A stretch of DNA of 64,000 bases from Candidatus Culexarchaeum nevadense (lineage in GTDB: Archaea > Thermoproteota > Methanomethylicia > Culexarchaeales > Culexarchaeaceae). The DNA lies in assembly GCA_025060975.1 (NCBI GenBank), contig JANZKA010000003.1:1101-65100 (forward strand), given 5' to 3'. Both the position numbers and the translations under genes were made by a program. Below are positions 3,540 through 59,894 of this stretch, in pieces (within the stretch, counting starts at the first letter, position 1; every line of letters starts with the position of its first letter). A model generated the notes under the pieces. It saw only the letters and a program-made list of their open reading frames with translations, did no database searches and had not been told where the DNA came from.

Positions 3540-6338
3540 ATGAAATCCTTCCAAAAACTAAATGAAAAACTAAGGAAAGTGATAAGGGAGTATGGATACA
3601 TAGAACCCACAGAACCCCAAGAAGAAGCAATACCAAAAATACTGGATGGAAAAAATGTACTGATAATAGCACCCACAGGTTCAGGTAAAACTGAAGCAGC
3701 ACTATTCCCAGTAATGAGCAAAATACTAGATGAAGAAGCTAAAGGGATTAGAGCAATATACATAACGCCCCTCAGAGCACTGAATAGAGACATATTGAGG
3801 AGAATGCAAGAAATAGCATTAAAAGCAGGGTTAACCATTGAAGTTAGACATGGAGATACACCTGAAGCTACTAGGAGAAGGCAATCCATAAAACCACCAC
3901 AAATACTAATAACAACACCAGAAACACTACAAGCAATACTGCCGGGGAAAAGAATGCGTAGACATTTATCAAAAGTTAAACATGTAATAATAGATGAAAT
4001 ACATGAATTCCTATCAGACAAAAGAGGAGTTCAACTCGCTCTAGCACTAGAAAGACTTAGGGAGATATGTGGAAACGAATTCCAAAGAATAGGGTTATCG
4101 GCAACTATTGGAAACCCATTGGAGGCAGTAAAATTCCTATCAGGTGAAGGGAGAAATGCGGAAATAGTAGACTCAACTATTGGTAAGAAGATTGAAGTCA
4201 AAGTTGAAGCTGTAATTGAAAATGGAGAAATTGAAAGCAAAATAGATGTAGATATACCGGAGACAATAATATCCAGAATTAAGAGGATAATGGAATTAAC
4301 ATTAGAAAATGGATTTACACTACTCTTCACGAACACTAGGGAAACAGCTGAATTCCTTGCAACAATGATTAAAAGGATGAATCCACCATTCAATATAGGG
4401 GTACATCACGGTTCACTATCCAGAGAAGAGAGGATAAGAGTTGAAGAAGAATTCAAGAATGGAATAATAAAACTCTTGATATGCACATCATCCCTAGAAC
4501 TTGGATTAGACATTGGACTCGTAAACTACGTAATACAATACACATCACCAAGACAGACAGTAAACTTGATACAGAGAATTGGGAGAGCCAAACACAAAAT
4601 AACAGAAACATCCCGGGGAGTTGTAATAACATCAACCCTAGACGACACACTGGAATCAGCAGTTCTAGCTAGGAGAGGGGTTAATGGAATCCTAGAACCA
4701 ATAAAGATTCATGAGAAAGCTTTGGATGTACTAGCTCACCAAATGGTTGGATTGATAATGGATAATGGATCTATAAGTATAAGCGATATTAAAAGGATTT
4801 TCAGTAGAGCATACCCATATAGGAATATAAGTGAAAACGAAATCTCTGAAGTTGCATCATTCCTATCAAGTATAGGAGTTGTGAAATACTTCAAAGAAGA
4901 TGGAATAATAAAAGCTAGAGGGAGGAGGACATGGAAATACTACTATGAAAACCTATCAGTAATACCCGATATAAGGAGATTTAAAGTTATATCCACAGAG
5001 AACAGGAGAGCCATAGGAGAACTCGATGAAGAATTTGTTGCAATACATGTAGAGGACCCATTCATACTTGCAGGGAGAGCTTGGAAAATTGTAAATGTAG
5101 ATGAAGATGAAATGAAAGTTTACGTGGAATATATGGGTGATGAACTTGCAGCAATACCAGCATGGATAGGAGAACTAATACCAGTATCCATGGAAACAGC
5201 TATGGAAACAGCTGATTTAAGAGAGAAGATAATTAAAGGTGAAGGTATAAGTGAATATCCATTAACAAAGGAATCAATAGAGTATGCTAAGAAAGTATTA
5301 GAAGAACACTTGAAATGTGGAATACCAATACCAACATCAAATAGGATTATAGTAGAAGGGTTAGGTAGGATAATCATAATACATGTACCACTTGGAACTA
5401 ATGGTAATAGAGCTCTAGCAACAATACTCTCATCTAAGATAACTGAAAAGATGAGGATGAATGTTAGGAGAGTTACAGACCCATATAGGGTGGCATTGAT
5501 AACACCAAACCCATTAAACCCAGAATCAATAATTGAATTAATTAGAAGTCTAGATCTGGAGGAGGAAGATATCGTTAATGCATTGAAAAATACACATGAA
5601 TACCAATGGAAACTACTCCACGTAGCTAGGAGAATGGGGGTTGTGGAGAAAGATGCGAAGATAAGCAAGATAAGAGGTTTAGCAGCATACTTAGAAGATA
5701 CCGTTGCAGAGAAGGAAGCAATTAGAGAAGCAATACAAGACTACTTCGACATAAAAGCAGTTAAAAGATTTATAGAAGAAATTAGGGCTGGTAGAGTTAA
5801 AGTGGAAGCGTATAAGAGTAGAATTGATGCTGAAATATCACCATTAACAAGACAAATACTCGTCCAAGCACTACCACATGGCTTAATACCGAAAGGTGAA
5901 GCTCCATTAAACATAGTGGATATCGTTAAAGAGAGATTACAAAATAGGGAGATTATACTTGCATGTATACATTGTAGGAAGTGGATGGGTAGATATAAAG
6001 TGAAATACCTACCAGAAGAAATAGTTTGCCCAAAATGTGGTGCAAAAGCTGTGGGAGCAACGCATAGGGAAGATATATTGAAAATATTGGGGAAGTGGCA
6101 TAGGGGTATAAAGATGAGTGACGATGAAAAGAAGAGTTTTGAAGAATTCCAGAGAAGCATAAGCTTAATAATGAGTTATGGTAAAAGGGCTTTAATAGCC
6201 TTAGCAGCTAGAGGGGTTGGGCCGACAACAGCAGCGAGAATACTTAAAGGATATATGAAGACTGAAGAGGAATTCTACCTAGAAATATTGGAAGCTGAGA
6301 AAGAATATCTTAGAACTAGAATGTTCTGGGAGGGGTAA
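3540..6338 (+). CDS. lhr: Lhr-like large ATP-dependent DEXH helicase
   Basis: Walker A APTGSGKTEA, DEIHEF (DEXH), helicase C motifs (QRIGRAKH) and a C-terminal Zn-finger CIHC...CPKCG. 932 aa, the typical Lhr size. Confidence 0.85.
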   Translation: MKSFQKLNEKLRKVIREYGYIEPTEPQEEAIPKILDGKNVLIIAPTGSGKTEAALFPVMSKILDEEAKGIRAIYITPLRALNRDILRRMQEIALKAGLTIEVRHGDTPEATRRRQSIKPPQILITTPETLQAILPGKRMRRHLSKVKHVIIDEIHEFLSDKRGVQLALALERLREICGNEFQRIGLSATIGNPLEAVKFLSGEGRNAEIVDSTIGKKIEVKVEAVIENGEIESKIDVDIPETIISRIKRIMELTLENGFTLLFTNTRETAEFLATMIKRMNPPFNIGVHHGSLSREERIRVEEEFKNGIIKLLICTSSLELGLDIGLVNYVIQYTSPRQTVNLIQRIGRAKHKITETSRGVVITSTLDDTLESAVLARRGVNGILEPIKIHEKALDVLAHQMVGLIMDNGSISISDIKRIFSRAYPYRNISENEISEVASFLSSIGVVKYFKEDGIIKARGRRTWKYYYENLSVIPDIRRFKVISTENRRAIGELDEEFVAIHVEDPFILAGRAWKIVNVDEDEMKVYVEYMGDELAAIPAWIGELIPVSMETAMETADLREKIIKGEGISEYPLTKESIEYAKKVLEEHLKCGIPIPTSNRIIVEGLGRIIIIHVPLGTNGNRALATILSSKITEKMRMNVRRVTDPYRVALITPNPLNPESIIELIRSLDLEEEDIVNALKNTHEYQWKLLHVARRMGVVEKDAKISKIRGLAAYLEDTVAEKEAIREAIQDYFDIKAVKRFIEEIRAGRVKVEAYKSRIDAEISPLTRQILVQALPHGLIPKGEAPLNIVDIVKERLQNREIILACIHCRKWMGRYKVKYLPEEIVCPKCGAKAVGATHREDILKILGKWHRGIKMSDDEKKSFEEFQRSISLIMSYGKRALIALAARGVGPTTAARILKGYMKTEEEFYLEILEAEKEYLRTRMFWEG

Positions 6339-52022: not shown

Positions 52023-52100
52023 GGGCCCGTAGCTCAGTTTGGATAGAGCACTGGCCTCCGGAGCCAGGGGTCCCGGGTTCAAATCCCGGCGGGCCCGCCA
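52023..52100 (+). tRNA. tRNA-Arg: tRNA-Arg (anticodon CCG), CCA encoded
   Basis: Cloverleaf: acceptor GGGCCCG/CGGGCCC, D-arm GCUC/GAGC, anticodon stem CUGGC/GCCAG with loop CUCCGGA (anticodon CCG), T-arm CCGGG-UUCAAAU-CCCGG, discriminator G, 3' CCA. 78 nt, no intron. Confidence 0.9.
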
Positions 52101-54777: not shown

Positions 54778-55473
54778 ATGAATCACAAAATACTAAGCTC
54801 ATTCTGTGTGGTGACTAGATTGGAGGAATTAGTACTTGATGGAAAGATTTTGGAATTGGAAAAGTTAATTGAAGAATTAAGAGACCATACAAACTTTTTA
54901 AAATGGTGTTTTAAGAGGTTTCTAGTGCCATTAATGGGACTTATTATGATACTAAGCCTAATTTGGAACGTGAACCTTGTGGGGTTAATATTTTTCTCAA
55001 CCATAACGTTCTTTTATGGTGGGTTCCTGCCAGACATAGATATACTTGTGAGGAAGACCGATAATCCACTTGAAGAGTCATTATGGTATGAAAAATACAC
55101 GTATCTCTTCTTAGCTCCAATAGTATTATATTACACTTTGATTGGCAGAGCTAAACCAATATATTCGATTAAAAGTAAATGCTTCCATAACATTGAATCA
55201 GCATTAATTTACGGTTTGTTAATCTTTGTAGTTTCATGCATATTCTGGCATGAATTTTGGATGAGAATAACTCCATCCATAACTGGCTTCATAGGATATT
55301 TAACACACTTAATTGTAGATGGCTTCATAAATATATCCAGTGAAATGAATAAAAGGATATACTATTGGTTTAGTTTGAAATGTGGCACCATAATTACCGA
55401 TGACAATTTAATAATGGAATTCTATAGTTTCCCCATAGTATTCGAGAATTACATAATTCTCCAGCTTGTGTAG
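54778..55473 (+). CDS. membrane-bound metal-dependent hydrolase-like protein (YdjM/DUF457 family)
   Basis: GGFLPDIDIL and GYLTHLIVDGF His/Asp motifs within TM segments. Confidence 0.45.
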   Translation: MNHKILSSFCVVTRLEELVLDGKILELEKLIEELRDHTNFLKWCFKRFLVPLMGLIMILSLIWNVNLVGLIFFSTITFFYGGFLPDIDILVRKTDNPLEESLWYEKYTYLFLAPIVLYYTLIGRAKPIYSIKSKCFHNIESALIYGLLIFVVSCIFWHEFWMRITPSITGFIGYLTHLIVDGFINISSEMNKRIYYWFSLKCGTIITDDNLIMEFYSFPIVFENYIILQLV

Positions 55474-57840
55474 ATCTCTCAACTCATCAATTATATCAGC
55501 ATACTCCTTGGAAAACTTTATTTCAACTTTAATTGGACTACTCAAACTTAACCCTAAATTCTTCTTCAAATTCCATATCTTGCTATTAGCGTTCACAAGT
55601 AACTCCAGGGGTTTAGATGAATAACGCCAATCACTCCTTGGATCATCAATCCTCTCAAGATGTATACTTCTCTTAGAGTAAAGCCTCCTCCATATGGAGT
55701 CTGTTATTATCGGCATTATTGGAGCCAACAGTTTTAAGACGTTACTTAAAACTTCATGTAGAACATACCATGAAGCCTTCTGCTGTCCATATGGATACTT
55801 TCCATTGAAGTTGTAAGCTCTCGACTTTACCGCTTCAATATAATGTGATGCAAATAGATTCCATGTGAAATTGTAAATTTCATTGATAGGTGTATAGACA
55901 TCCATGGAATTATATGCTGATATACATTTATCTAGAAGCATGTTTAAACTTGAGAGCATAGCCTTATCTAAGGGTCTAAGTTCAATTTCACTTGGATCTG
56001 GACGTGGGAATGATGATATAAATCTAGATATATTCCAAAGCTTGGTAATAAAGAGTGATCCAGTCTTAATTAGCTGTTCTGAAAATCTATAATCACTCCC
56101 AAGCTTGGAAGCTGAAGCTGCCCAAAACCTAAATGCATCCACACCATACTTCTTAAGGTATGGCTCTGGATCTATCACGTTACCCTTAGATTTATGCATA
56201 GCCTCCCCCTTCTCATCTAGACCCATACCGCTAATCCTAACATACTTGAACGCTGGCTTACCCATTAATTGATAGATTCTTAGAACTGAGTAGTATAACC
56301 AAGTCCTAATGATATCATAACCTTGAGGTCTAACAGTATTCGGGAATAGCTTATTGAATAACTTGTCATCACCATACTTTGAGACATATAGGACGCTTAT
56401 GGAAGAATCAAACCAAGTGTCGAGTACCTTCAACTCCCCCCTAAGCCTACCCCTAGGAGCATTACATTTCGGGCATTGCTGAAATGGAGGTTCATCAATC
56501 CAAGGCCTATAATATCTTCCAGGTTCAGGTAGTAGGATTTCACCACAATCAAGACATCTCCAAACGGGAACCTCGGTAGCATAATATCTATCCTTACTGA
56601 TAGGCCAATCAGTAGATACGGATTCAATCCAATCTAAAAGCCTCCTCCTATGCTCTTCTGGATAGAATATCATGAGCTGAGACACCCTCTTCAAATCCCC
56701 CTTGAAATCCAATTGTTTAAGGAAATATTCCTTGGAATTTATGAATTCAATTGGAGTTTTACATCTCCAGCAAACTGGATGTTCACGCACAAGATCCTCA
56801 ACTTTAACGATCAACCCCCTGGAATAAAGCTCCTCCACAATCCTCATCCTAGCTTCAACAATACTCAACCCCCTCAGAAATCCTGAAAACTCATTCATCC
56901 TTCCATCCCTATCAATTATAACTCTAGGCTCTAAACCCATATCCCTAAAAATCTTAACATCTACACTATCACCATAACTACATATCATGGCAAGTCCAGT
57001 TCCAAACTCCGGTTTAGCTTCCCCCCTCTCAACTATTGGAACTATTTGACCATATATTGGGACCACTGCATGAAGACCATGCAACCTCTTATACCTATCA
57101 TCAAATGGATTATAAATGACTATGGAGCATGCAGCTAAAAGTTCAGGTCTAGTTGTAGCTATAACTATATCTTCACCAGTCTCATGAACTTTAAACTTAA
57201 TATAATAGAGTTTAGCTACATCAGACTTGTACTCAAGCTCTGCATCAGCAAGCGTTGTCCTACAACGTGGACACCAATTTACAGGCCTCTCATCCTCATA
57301 TATGAGTCCACGCTTAAACAATTCAATGAATGTTGCTTGAGTTATACGCCTATACTCTGGACTATCAGTCCCCGAAGGCCAATACTCAAAGCTACATCCA
57401 CCCCTAATCAACCCATCAACCAAAATCTTCTCCACCGAATCAAGCTCAGATTTACATAATTTCAAGAACTCCATTCTACCATTAGGTGTTGAAGCAAGCT
57501 CATGTATGTTTAAATTAAACTTACGCTCCACTTGAACCTCTACTGGAAGACCATTCCTATCAGCGTAGAAGGGGAGCAACACATTGTAACCTCTCATCCT
57601 AAAGTATCTTGCCACCATATCTATCTGCATATAGTGAGCCAAGTTTCCAACATTCCACGGCCCTGAAACGTAGGGCGGCGGTGTATCAAAGACTATTACT
57701 GGTCTATCATCACTTGGATCATAATTGAACTTGTATATCCCCTCAGACCACCAAGACTCTATAATCTTAGATTCCTCAGCCCTATCCCAACGTTTCTCAA
57801 CTATAATGGGTTTAAACTCTTCACCAATAAAACCCACCAA
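55408..57840 (-). CDS. class Ia aminoacyl-tRNA synthetase, ValRS-like, with non-canonical HIGH and KMSKS motifs
   Basis: TPPPYVSG, editing-domain ATTRPEL, Zn knuckles (CPRCRT, CWRCKTP, CLDCG, CPKCN) and the overall 810-aa layout resemble archaeal ValRS. The HIGH position reads NVGN/NLAH and the KMSKS position reads AMHKSKG. Confidence 0.6.
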   Translation of the reverse strand: MVGFIGEEFKPIIVEKRWDRAEESKIIESWWSEGIYKFNYDPSDDRPVIVFDTPPPYVSGPWNVGNLAHYMQIDMVARYFRMRGYNVLLPFYADRNGLPVEVQVERKFNLNIHELASTPNGRMEFLKLCKSELDSVEKILVDGLIRGGCSFEYWPSGTDSPEYRRITQATFIELFKRGLIYEDERPVNWCPRCRTTLADAELEYKSDVAKLYYIKFKVHETGEDIVIATTRPELLAACSIVIYNPFDDRYKRLHGLHAVVPIYGQIVPIVERGEAKPEFGTGLAMICSYGDSVDVKIFRDMGLEPRVIIDRDGRMNEFSGFLRGLSIVEARMRIVEELYSRGLIVKVEDLVREHPVCWRCKTPIEFINSKEYFLKQLDFKGDLKRVSQLMIFYPEEHRRRLLDWIESVSTDWPISKDRYYATEVPVWRCLDCGEILLPEPGRYYRPWIDEPPFQQCPKCNAPRGRLRGELKVLDTWFDSSISVLYVSKYGDDKLFNKLFPNTVRPQGYDIIRTWLYYSVLRIYQLMGKPAFKYVRISGMGLDEKGEAMHKSKGNVIDPEPYLKKYGVDAFRFWAASASKLGSDYRFSEQLIKTGSLFITKLWNISRFISSFPRPDPSEIELRPLDKAMLSSLNMLLDKCISAYNSMDVYTPINEIYNFTWNLFASHYIEAVKSRAYNFNGKYPYGQQKASWYVLHEVLSNVLKLLAPIMPIITDSIWRRLYSKRSIHLERIDDPRSDWRYSSKPLELLVNANSKIWNLKKNLGLSLSSPIKVEIKFSKEYADIIDELRDLHKLENYVILEYYGETIEFHY

Positions 57841-57887: not shown

Positions 57888-59831
57888 CTACATCCTCTTA
57901 GGAGCCTCTATACCCAAAATCCCTAAACCATTCCTAAGAGTCTTCATAACTGATTTTACAAGCATAACCCTAGCATTCCTTAACCCCTCATCAGTACACT
58001 TCAAAACTGGAAGTTTATCATAGAATAAATTGAAGTCCATAGCTAAATCATTCAAATATGCACAGAGGGATTCAAAACTCAATTTCGAAACAGCATCTGA
58101 AACAACTTCTGGAAACATGGCTAAATCCAAAATCAATTTACATTCTAAGGGATCCACAAGCTTACTCACATCATAATCACTATAATCCCAATCCACCTTG
58201 GCAAGAATATTATATGCCCTTGCATGGGCATACTGTATGAATGGACCACTATTCTGATCGAAATCCAAAATCTTACTCCAATCAAACACAATCCTCTTAC
58301 TTGGAGACACTGAAAGCATAGCATAACGTATAGCTCCAACAGCCACAATTCTAGCTATATCTTCAACTTCAGACATACTTAAACCCGGATTCCTCTTCAA
58401 AACCTCAACCTTACATCTCTCAACAGCTTCCCTCAGCAATCCATCAAGATCCACATATCTACCACGCCTACTGGACATTTTAAATCCAGGTAGATGGACA
58501 AGCTCATAGGAGTAGTGTAATAGGTTTAAAGCATAATCCATTAAACCCATACATGCCAAGGCAACTCTCAACTGAAGTTGAGCTAAAGACTGCTCATTCC
58601 CAATAACATGTATAACCATATCAGCATCTCTAAACTGTCTTATCGTATAGGCTATATCCCTAGTAGTATACAGAGTTCTACCATCAGACCTCGTTAAAAC
58701 CAGTTCTGGAATTTCATGACGCTCATCAACTTTAAAAAGCTTCTTCAAACCAAGACTTCTACAAGCAGACTCCACATCAAACACCCATACACCCTCAAAC
58801 CTCAAAAACCCAGTACCCTTAAGCTTCTCCAAAACTCTACCCACATCACCACTCCAAACCACATCACTCTCCCAATCCCAGAATTCATGGTGAACATTTA
58901 TCTTTGAAAGAGTCTCCTTAAACCCTTCAATAACCATACTGCAAAGTTCACGTATAACCCTTTTAGCATACTCCACTCCACGCTCATAATCTAAATCAAG
59001 CTTATTTATTGAACTCAATGGATCAGCATCTGAGTTAACATGATCCAGCAATGCTTCAAAGAGTTCAGGACTCCTACCCCTCAATTCCTCAGCAACAGAA
59101 ACCCACTCCGAAAGCTCAGCATTCAACTTTGAAATTTCATCTGGATCTGGATTCTGAAGAGCTTTTAAGGTTGCCAATCTATCTTTTAACCTCCTAATCT
59201 CAACAAGACAATTGGTCATGGCATAAATTAAACCTATAAAGTGATCAGGCTTCAAATTCAATTTAACCTTATCTTTAACACCCATAAACCCATAAGCTGC
59301 TATTGAAACTTGAAGACCAACATCATCTATGTAGAAGTGCGTTCTAACCTTATGACCAACACCCCTCAAAAGCCTAGCTAAACTATCCCCCAAAATTGCA
59401 TTCCTACCAGCACCTATATGAAGAGGATGTATAGGATTGGCGCTAGTATGCTCCACAACAATCCTCAAAGGTTTATCCACAGGTATAAAACCATAATTGT
59501 GATCTAAAATTTCAATAGACTTAAAGGTTAATGATGCAAGTTTTTGATAATTAACCCTAAAATTCACATATCCACCAGATGGTTCAACACCACCTATAAG
59601 GCTATAACTGGATAAATCAATCCCCCCAGCTATCTTTAAAGCAAGATCCATTGGGTTTATACCTAGAGATTTTGCCAATGCAAATGTTGGGAAAGCCATT
59701 TCAGCTGAAATCCCACTTGGAGGTCTCTCCAAAGATACACTTACATCACCAACAACAATCCCACTCAAAGCCTTTGAAATAGCATCAGCACATTCAAACC
59801 TGAATCTCCCAAATGGATTGTATTCGACCAT
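57888..59831 (-). CDS. argS: arginyl-tRNA synthetase
   Basis: HIGH region PIHPLHIGAGRN, KMSKS-equivalent FKMSSRRG and DALR anticodon-binding C-terminus. The true start is likely the ATG at 59831 (MVEYNPF...), not the TTG at 59891 in the ORF track. Confidence 0.85.
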   Translation of the reverse strand: MVEYNPFGRFRFECADAISKALSGIVVGDVSVSLERPPSGISAEMAFPTFALAKSLGINPMDLALKIAGGIDLSSYSLIGGVEPSGGYVNFRVNYQKLASLTFKSIEILDHNYGFIPVDKPLRIVVEHTSANPIHPLHIGAGRNAILGDSLARLLRGVGHKVRTHFYIDDVGLQVSIAAYGFMGVKDKVKLNLKPDHFIGLIYAMTNCLVEIRRLKDRLATLKALQNPDPDEISKLNAELSEWVSVAEELRGRSPELFEALLDHVNSDADPLSSINKLDLDYERGVEYAKRVIRELCSMVIEGFKETLSKINVHHEFWDWESDVVWSGDVGRVLEKLKGTGFLRFEGVWVFDVESACRSLGLKKLFKVDERHEIPELVLTRSDGRTLYTTRDIAYTIRQFRDADMVIHVIGNEQSLAQLQLRVALACMGLMDYALNLLHYSYELVHLPGFKMSSRRGRYVDLDGLLREAVERCKVEVLKRNPGLSMSEVEDIARIVAVGAIRYAMLSVSPSKRIVFDWSKILDFDQNSGPFIQYAHARAYNILAKVDWDYSDYDVSKLVDPLECKLILDLAMFPEVVSDAVSKLSFESLCAYLNDLAMDFNLFYDKLPVLKCTDEGLRNARVMLVKSVMKTLRNGLGILGIEAPKRM

Positions 59832-59894
59832 AAACCCCAAAAGGAGATTGTGGGAGGAGACATATAAAATTAGAGTTACAGTTAAAACCAAATG

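What the first reader, a model, noticed from the sequence alone, without database searches (positions are those of the whole stretch)
55408..57840. ValRS-like class I synthetase with both catalytic signature motifs degenerate
The protein has ValRS hallmarks (TPPPYVSG, editing-domain ATTRPEL, four Zn knuckles). Where HIGH should be it reads PWNVGNLAHY, with both His positions occupied by Asn/Leu. Where KMSKS should be it reads AMHKSKG. Either this lineage's ValRS uses highly unusual motifs, or this is a catalytically altered or inactive paralogue with a moonlighting role, as reported for a second LeuRS copy in Sulfolobus. It lies directly next to argS.
Basis: partly seen in the sequence, partly recalled or inferred. 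Interest (0 to 1): 0.65.

Follow-up and report, generated by a model that had tools for sequence, protein, structure and literature searches.

The report
Orthologous archaeal ValRS with histidine-free HIGH motif
This gene is the ordinary valine-tRNA synthetase of the hot-spring archaeon Candidatus Culexarchaeum nevadense, not a decayed spare copy; most of its "odd" motifs are normal for its whole archaeal family, and the only oddity specific to this lineage is one catalytic histidine replaced by asparagine.

Summary
ORF 55408-57840(-) is an 810-aa archaeal-type ValRS that reads NVGN where HIGH should be and AMHKS where KMSKS should be. It lies directly downstream of argS.

The "inactive moonlighting paralogue" reading is not supported.
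- AMHKS and loss of the fourth His (HVGG) are the consensus of 115 Thermoproteota ValRS, including those of cultured Desulfurococcus, Thermogladius and Pyrodictium.
- Only His63->Asn and Gly66->Asn are lineage-specific. Both are fixed in all 10 full-length genes of the Culexarchaeum clade.
- The gene keeps 242 of 249 family-conserved columns, all four CxxC knuckles, the editing motifs and the second KMSKS lysine.
- It shows no rate acceleration, and its dN/dS (0.08-0.10) is lower than that of the adjacent argS.
- The glmS-MFS-argS-valS order is kept within Culexarchaeum, and MFS-argS-valS in two 77-79% relatives.

The best reading is a housekeeping ValRS with a rare, His-free variant of the class I signature. 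The first His is otherwise present in 108 of 109 diverse ValRS representatives. Whether the genome holds a second valS could not be tested here. Interest is moderate to low: a new motif variant of a known enzyme.

The parts
55408..57840 (-). valS, archaeal-type valine-tRNA ligase (810 aa from TTG 57840; alternative starts GTG 57837 and ATT 57828)
   Evidence: NCBIfam NF009687 873.7 bits against cut-off 738. Pfam tRNA-synt_1 plus Anticodon_1. 1GAX E=1e-104. AF2 pLDDT 90.1 with Foldseek top hit 1gax_A, TM 0.81. Identical to MCS7368495.1 of Ca. Culexarchaeum nevadense GBS-70-058.
57643..57654 (-). HIGH-equivalent signature, residues 63-66 = N-V-G-N (codons AAT GTT GGA AAC), at the N-terminus of the first Rossmann helix
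   Evidence: Aligns to HMGH of 1GAX. The AF2 helix starts at residue 64. Family consensus is HVGG with His at 115/115. NVGN is fixed in 10/10 clade genes, with Asn66 encoded by both AAC and AAT.
56188..56202 (-). KMSKS-equivalent loop, residues 547-551 = A-M-H-K-S (second Lys retained)
   Evidence: Aligns to KMSKS of 1GAX. Identical to the consensus of 115 Thermoproteota ValRS; M548, H549, K550 and S551 are invariant in alignment A1.
56791..57216 (-). CP1 editing domain (about residues 209-350) with ATTRPE and FGTG...YGD..D motifs
   Evidence: Matches the isolated ValRS editing domains 1wka and 1wk9. The motifs are identical to the family consensus.
55519..55968 (-). Anticodon-binding helical domain (residues 625-774)
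   Evidence: Pfam PF08264, 103 bits. pLDDT above 90 throughout.
57888..59891 (-). argS, 47 bp upstream on the same strand; probably co-transcribed (inferred)
   Evidence: NF002446, 681 bits. The MFS-argS-valS order is conserved in L001, L002, L007-L011, L014 and L015.

Best explanation
This is the vertically inherited, housekeeping valine-tRNA ligase of Candidatus Culexarchaeum nevadense (class Culexarchaeia; filed under Methanomethylicia in some databases).

It belongs to the Thermoproteota branch of archaeal-type ValRS. In that whole branch the class I signatures read H-V-G-G/A/Q and (A/E)-M-H-K-S rather than H-x-G-H and K-M-S-K-S. On the stem of the Culexarchaeum clade the motif changed further, from HVGG to NVGN. 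The first His became Asn, and an Asn appeared at the fourth position, where canonical enzymes have His.

Inferred mechanism (not shown): the enzyme still activates valine with ATP and charges tRNA-Val. The retained second lysine of the AMHKS loop and the amide side chains of Asn63 and Asn66 would supply the hydrogen bonds to ATP and the transition state that histidines normally give. The intact CP1 domain would edit Thr-tRNA-Val.

Shown here: orthology, domain and motif integrity, fixation of the variant, and strong purifying selection. Inferred: catalytic competence, and that this is the only valS in the genome.
For: - Identity as ValRS: NF009687 873.7 bits, above the 738 cut-off. Full-length alignment to 1GAX. 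AF2 pLDDT 90.1, pTM 0.87, and best Foldseek hit 1gax_A with TM 0.81.
- The motifs are family-wide. Of the 120 closest homologues, 89 read KWHVGG and about 100 read (A/E)MHKS. These include proteins on complete-genome-sized contigs of Desulfurococcus amylolyticus, D. mucosus, Thermogladius and Pyrodictium delaneyi.
- Only 7 of 249 columns that are at least 95% conserved in 115 outgroup sequences are changed in the clade. The Zn knuckles, ATTRPE, FGTG..YGD..D, DTWFDSS, QG.DI and GMGLDEKGEAMHKSKGN match the consensus.
- No acceleration: NJ root-to-tip distance is 0.883, against 0.849 +/- 0.047 for the others. Mean identity to the outgroup is 0.57-0.59, against 0.61 for the sister sequence P0005.
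- Purifying selection: dN/dS is 0.07-0.12 at dS 0.1-0.5. For the same genome pairs valS gives 0.08-0.10, argS 0.115-0.195 and the MFS gene 0.13-0.30.
- NVGN is fixed in 10/10 full-length clade genes spanning 76-100% amino-acid identity, with synonymous codon variation around and within the motif.
- Conserved MFS-argS-valS neighbourhood.
- The nearest HVGG sequences (P0005/L006 at GC 54%, L012 at GC 46%) come from other organisms than the 29-40% GC Culexarchaeum loci. They are sister orthologues, not co-resident paralogues.
- Precedents that altered HIGH motifs can be fully active: natural G/AXHH IleRS2 (PMC10485003) and TIGN in bacterial TrpRS (PMC10201369).
Against: - The first His of HIGH stabilises the transition state of amino-acid activation. 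Mutating it in several class I enzymes lowers the rate about 1000-fold (PMC10485003).
- That His is present in 115/115 Thermoproteota ValRS and in 108/109 diverse ValRS representatives. Its loss is therefore a real anomaly for a supposedly fully active enzyme.
- No obvious relocated His or Lys was found among the 42 clade-specific substitutions.
- Whether the genome lacks a second valS was not testable. The window has no other class Ia synthetase, but it covers only 64 kb of a 1.42 Mb MAG.
Confidence: 0.8

Rival explanations
1. Inactive or catalytically repurposed ValRS paralogue (a pseudo-synthetase). It would be kept for a non-canonical role such as tRNA-Val binding, trans-editing or regulation, while an unseen canonical valS elsewhere in the genome charges tRNA-Val. 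This is analogous to Sulfolobaceae LeuRS-I.
For: - The otherwise invariant first His of HIGH is lost, and mutating that residue normally costs about 1000-fold in activation.
- The whole genome could not be searched.
- Strong purifying selection is also compatible with a conserved non-catalytic role.
Against: - No acceleration or domain decay. 242 of 249 conserved columns are kept, and CP1, the Zn knuckles, the amino-acid pocket motifs and the second KMSKS Lys are intact. LeuRS-I has a disrupted CP1 and a divergent C-terminus.
- In the ValRS tree the clade sits as a single monophyletic lineage with normal branch length.
- A vertically inherited canonical copy would be at least about 60% identical and should appear among the 120 best hits, which reach down to 56% identity. 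At least six NCBI Culexarchaeum/Methanomethylicia MAG proteins are in that database. The named Culexarchaeum/Methanomethylicia hits whose HIGH region is present all read NVGN; P0006 lacks that region.
- The aaRS duplication review lists no ValRS case.
Confidence: 0.07
2. Sole and active ValRS in which the NVGN motif was selected because it confers resistance to a natural active-site inhibitor (an aminoacyl-adenylate mimic). This would parallel the G/AXHH motif that makes IleRS2 hyper-resistant to mupirocin. It is a special case of the best explanation that adds an adaptive cause.
For: - There is a precedent for resistance driven by a signature-motif change in a sister class Ia enzyme.
- Two coordinated substitutions within four residues (H63N, G66N), plus A67L, are fixed across the clade.
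Against: - No inhibitor of archaeal ValRS is known in these hot-spring communities.
- No biosynthetic or self-resistance context is seen around the gene.
- The change could equally be neutral and compensated drift.
Confidence: 0.1
3. Artefact: a mis-registered alignment, a frameshift or an assembly error creates the apparent loss of motifs.
For: None found.
Against: - The alignment to 1GAX is gap-free through both motifs.
- The ORF is uninterrupted.
- The identical peptide occurs in 10 independent assemblies from Yellowstone, Great Boiling Spring and Chinese springs.
Confidence: 0.01

Closest known systems
Thermoproteota (crenarchaeal) archaeal-type ValRS, NCBIfam NF009687 / PRK13208, e.g. Desulfurococcus amylolyticus valS
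   Same: 56-63% identity over the full length among the listed homologues (about 61% to Desulfurococcus). Same domain order, four CxxC knuckles, editing motifs, the AMHKS loop and no His at HIGH position 4.
   Different: The first His of the motif is Asn and position 4 is Asn instead of Gly (NVGN against HVGG). W144L and five other conservative changes occur at otherwise conserved columns.
Thermus thermophilus ValRS (PDB 1GAX), the structural reference for ValRS
   Same: The fold matches with TM 0.81 and 29% identity. Zn knuckles, CP1 and the anticodon-binding domain are shared.
   Different: 1GAX has canonical HMGH and KMSKS and a C-terminal coiled-coil extension (862 aa). The archaeal-type protein is shorter.
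IleRS2 with the natural non-canonical G/AXHH signature (Brkic et al. 2023, PMC10485003)
   Same: A class Ia housekeeping synthetase in which the first His of HIGH is naturally replaced yet the enzyme is fully active. Those IleRS structures are also among the best Foldseek matches.
   Different: In IleRS2 the His is relocated to position 3 and the variant gives mupirocin hyper-resistance. Here Gly stays at position 3, no His remains in the motif, and no inhibitor link is known.
Sulfolobaceae LeuRS-I (Weitzel et al. 2020, as summarised in PMC9437257)
   Different: LeuRS-I coexists with a functional LeuRS, has a disrupted CP1 and a very divergent C-terminus, and cannot aminoacylate. The present protein has none of these sequence features, and no co-resident copy was seen.
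Bacterial TrpRS with a TIGN signature
   Same: An active class I enzyme with a non-His first position and Asn at position 4 of the HIGH-equivalent motif (PMC10201369).
   Different: It belongs to a different subclass (Ic), is a dimer and has no editing domain. The similarity is in motif chemistry only.

Membership tests
Valine-tRNA ligase, archaeal type (NF009687/PRK13208) | Full-length match to the curated equivalog HMM above its cut-off | tested here: met
   873.7 bits against cut-off 738, covering residues 15-796. TIGR00422 gives 575.6 bits, below its 612.1 cut-off.
Valine-tRNA ligase, archaeal type (NF009687/PRK13208) | Rossmann catalytic core + CP1 editing insertion + helical anticodon-binding domain, ValRS fold | tested here: met
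   Pfam PF00133 and PF08264. AF2 pLDDT 90.1. Foldseek best hit 1gax_A, E=1e-52, TM 0.81.
Valine-tRNA ligase, archaeal type (NF009687/PRK13208) | Four CxxC zinc knuckles and editing-site motifs (T-rich ATTRPE, GTG...D..D) | tested here: met
   C190/193, C357/360, C429/432 and C456/459, plus ATTRPE and FGTGLAMICSYGDSVD, all match the consensus of 115 relatives.
Valine-tRNA ligase, archaeal type (NF009687/PRK13208) | Literal class I HxGH signature | tested here: not met
   Reads NVGN. Accepted family members also fail the literal motif at position 4: HVGG/A/Q in 115/115 Thermoproteota ValRS. All of them keep the first His, however. Loss of that His is specific to this clade.
Valine-tRNA ligase, archaeal type (NF009687/PRK13208) | Literal KMSKS signature, with the catalytic second Lys | tested here: inconclusive
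   Reads AMHKS. The first Lys is lost and the second Lys (K550) is kept. This is identical to the family consensus, with M548, H549, K550 and S551 invariant in A1.
Valine-tRNA ligase, archaeal type (NF009687/PRK13208) | Valine activation and tRNA-Val aminoacylation activity | not testable with these tools
   Needs ATP-PPi exchange and charging assays.
Non-aminoacylating aaRS paralogue (Sulfolobaceae LeuRS-I type) | Coexists with a canonical synthetase of the same specificity in the same genome | not testable with these tools
   No whole-genome access. There is none in the 64 kb window. No second Culexarchaeum-like ValRS appears among the 120 best hits, which reach down to 56% identity.
Non-aminoacylating aaRS paralogue (Sulfolobaceae LeuRS-I type) | Degenerate editing domain, divergent C-terminal domain, or accelerated evolution | tested here: not met
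   CP1 and C-terminal motifs match the consensus. 242 of 249 conserved columns are kept. Branch length is normal. dN/dS is 0.08-0.10, at or below that of argS.
IleRS2-type swapped signature (G/AXHH) | His moved to position 3 with Gly/Ala at position 1 | tested here: not met
   Position 3 is still Gly and position 1 is Asn. There is no His within the motif.

The most novel reading that the evidence does not exclude
The Culexarchaeum ValRS has lost amino-acid activation through loss of the transition-state His. It would be kept under strong selection for another job, such as tRNA-Val binding or delivery, trans-editing or regulation, while a second, unseen enzyme charges tRNA-Val. This would be the first ValRS pseudo-synthetase described in archaea.
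Probability: 0.07. Interest if true: 0.75.

Novelty: new variant of a known kind. Interest (0 to 1): 0.35.

Why it matters
If this is the sole ValRS, as the evidence favours, it is a natural class Ia synthetase that works with no histidine in its HIGH signature.

The first His is regarded as a key transition-state ligand. Its natural replacement in IleRS2 was described as highly surprising and turned out to underlie antibiotic hyper-resistance (PMC10485003). The N-x-G-N variant would extend the known plasticity of the most conserved class I motif.

It also gives a clean natural experiment: HVGG sister lineages against the NVGN clade, with 97% of the other conserved positions unchanged. That comparison could show how the ATP site compensates.

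There is a practical caution too. AMHKS and HVGG are the norm for Thermoproteota ValRS, so textbook motif checks will wrongly flag the whole family as degenerate.

Tried and rejected
1. Looking for a second valS.
   - phmmer of the protein against all window ORFs of at least 100 aa found only itself.
   - The main text and supplements of the Culexarchaeia paper hold no per-genome valS count.
   - So "sole copy" remains untested.
2. P0005/L006 and L012 (PWHVGG, 68-71% identity) as possible co-resident canonical paralogues. Rejected: their GC is 54% and 46%, against 29-40% for the Culexarchaeum loci, and they branch as a sister lineage.
3. L013 (55% identity, HLGA/KMSKS, GC 38%) as a possible second copy. 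Rejected: its ValRS is closest (67%) to the P0113 lineage, and its neighbouring Lhr helicase is only 38% identical to the window's copy.
4. Synteny with outgroups as a positional-orthology test. Uninformative: L005 (P0007) has no argS neighbour, and the L006 and L012 contigs are too short.
5. Structural compensation between HIGH position 4 and residue 144 (W in HVGG enzymes, L here and in 1GAX). Rejected: Trp at 144 is common in HxGH enzymes too.
6. Search for a relocated His or Lys among the 42 clade-specific substitutions. None is obvious.
7. Literature search for a description of crenarchaeal ValRS motif variants. Nothing specific was found.
Full report
**What is there**

The finding's coordinates coincide with one uninterrupted ORF, 55408-57840 on the minus strand, 810 aa from a TTG start.
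- It carries Pfam tRNA-synt_1 and Anticodon_1.
- It scores 873.7 bits against the curated archaeal-type ValRS equivalog NF009687, whose cut-off is 738. IleRS, LeuRS and MetRS models score far lower.
- It aligns end to end with Thermus thermophilus ValRS 1GAX at E=1e-104.
- An AlphaFold2 model built from a 46-sequence alignment is confident (pLDDT 90.1, pTM 0.87). Its best PDB match is 1gax_A with TM 0.81.
- The gene 47 bp upstream on the same strand is argS (NF002446, 681 bits).

**The observation**

The gap-free 1GAX alignment places PPPNVTGSLHMGH over PPPYVSGPWNVGN and KMSKS over AMHKS, so the motifs were not missed because of an indel. One detail needs correcting: the two His positions are Asn63 and Asn66 (N-V-G-N), not Asn/Leu. 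The motif sits at window 57643-57654 with codons AAT GTT GGA AAC.

**Whose gene it is**

An exact look-up shows the window's protein is MCS7368495.1 of MAG GBS-70-058, Candidatus Culexarchaeum nevadense, on a 65,856-bp contig. According to the describing paper this MAG is 1.42 Mb, 37% GC and 96.7% complete, with a predicted growth optimum of 83 C (PMC9723716). The window's GC agrees.

**Most of the "degeneracy" is the family norm**

Among the 120 closest database homologues (56-100% identity), 89 read KWHVGG and about 100 read (A/E)MHKS. These include proteins on complete-genome-sized contigs of Desulfurococcus amylolyticus, D. mucosus, Thermogladius sp. and Pyrodictium delaneyi.

In an alignment with 115 such sequences the window protein matches the consensus at several motifs:
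- the Zn knuckles
- the Thr-rich ATTRPE motif
- FGTG..YGD..D
- DTWFDSS
- QG.DI
- the whole GMGLDEKGEAMHKSKGN segment

So AMHKS, which keeps the second lysine, and the loss of the fourth His are characteristics of Thermoproteota ValRS, not of this gene. More distant representatives are mostly canonical HxGH/KMSKS.

**What is specific to this lineage**

Only P0001-P0004 and the corresponding loci read PWNVGN.
- The motif is identical in all 10 full-length genes of the clade: the window, L001, L002, L007-L011, L014 and L015. They span 76-100% identity and come from Nevada, Yellowstone and Chinese springs.
- Neighbouring codons and Asn66 itself vary synonymously.
- In the 115 outgroup sequences the first His is 100% conserved.
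- Among 109 full-length representatives of 50%-identity clusters across the ValRS family it is His in 108 and Thr in one.

The loss of the first His is therefore real, rare and ancient.

**Is the protein decaying or repurposed?**

The evidence says no.
- Of 249 columns at least 95% conserved in the outgroup, the clade changes seven: I51F, H63N, W144L, F473L, A567V, E686Q and F711I. Six of these are conservative.
- Per-sequence deviations (7-13) lie within the outgroup range, whose maximum is 13.
- In an NJ tree the clade is monophyletic and sister to a PWHVGG lineage (P0005, L012). Its root-to-tip distance is 0.883, against 0.849 +/- 0.047 for the rest.
- dN/dS is 0.07-0.12 where dS is unsaturated.
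- For the same genome pairs valS (0.08-0.10) is under at least as much constraint as the adjacent argS (0.115-0.195) and the MFS gene (0.13-0.30).
- The glmS-MFS-argS-valS arrangement is conserved in the 92-99% relatives, and MFS-argS-valS in the 77-79% relatives.

**Is there a canonical second copy?**

The indirect evidence is as follows.
- The window has no other class Ia synthetase.
- The named Culexarchaeum and Methanomethylicia proteins among the 120 best hits read NVGN wherever their HIGH region is present; P0006 is N-terminally truncated.
- The nearest HVGG sequences have GC of 54% and 46%, against 29-40% for the clade loci, so they come from other organisms.
- L013 belongs to a different lineage.
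- A horizontally acquired, distant second valS cannot be excluded.

**Mechanistic reading**

According to PMC10485003, the first His of HIGH stabilises the activation transition state, and mutating it typically costs about 1000-fold. The same paper shows that a natural class Ia enzyme, IleRS2, works as a housekeeping synthetase with a G/AXHH motif. Bacterial TrpRS uses TIGN (PMC10201369). From memory, E. coli GluRS reads HVGG; this was not checked here.

I infer that NVGN is a compensated variant. Relative to the HVGG ancestor, a hydrogen-bonding amide was gained at position 4 at the same time as His1 became Asn. The KMSKS-loop lysine K550 is intact. I found no relocated His or Lys. An apparent coupling with residue 144 did not hold up.

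LeuRS-I has a disrupted CP1 and a divergent C-terminus (PMC9437257), and this protein has neither.

**Verdict**

This is an orthologous housekeeping ValRS with a rare His-free variant of the class I signature, at confidence about 0.8. The moonlighting-paralogue reading stands at about 0.07. The finding is a new variant of a known kind and of moderate-to-low interest. It mainly concerns synthetase enzymologists, and it is a caution that textbook motif checks mis-flag the whole Thermoproteota ValRS family.

Noticed in passing
window 57888-59891 (-), argS: The adjacent ArgRS also lacks the fourth His of its HIGH motif. It reads PLHIGAGRNAILGD, against PLHMGHARNAILGD in Pyrococcus horikoshii ArgRS 2ZUE. 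Its KMSKS-equivalent reads FKMSSRRG.
   Followed up: partly
window 1-64000: There is a strong strand-wide A>T asymmetry: A 23,304 against T 16,978, AT skew +0.157. The skew is positive in every 2-kb bin whatever the gene orientation. Coding-strand AT skew is +0.24 to +0.31 for three soluble plus-strand genes, but -0.02 to -0.37 for minus-strand genes. This suggests a replication or mutational strand bias on top of the coding bias.
   Followed up: partly
window 54778-55473 (+) against valS 3' end 55408-55473: A convergent 231-aa ORF with no Pfam hit, apparently a membrane protein, overlaps the last 66 nt of valS. It is conserved in the close relatives L007-L011 and L014 at 71-99% identity.
   Followed up: no
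window 52023-52100 (+): tRNA-Arg(CCG) is the only tRNA gene in the window. It lies about 5.8 kb from argS.
   Followed up: no
L013 5989-11307; window 3540-6338: In an unrelated Thermoproteota contig (L013, GC 38%) valS has canonical KMSKS with HLGA. It is followed directly by an Lhr-type DEAD helicase homologous (38%) to the window's Lhr gene at 3540-6338, which lies about 50 kb from valS here.
   Followed up: no
protein P0247 (representative search): This is the only other ValRS-family representative seen without the first His. It reads L-T-M-G-H, is 894 aa and its organism is unknown.
   Followed up: no
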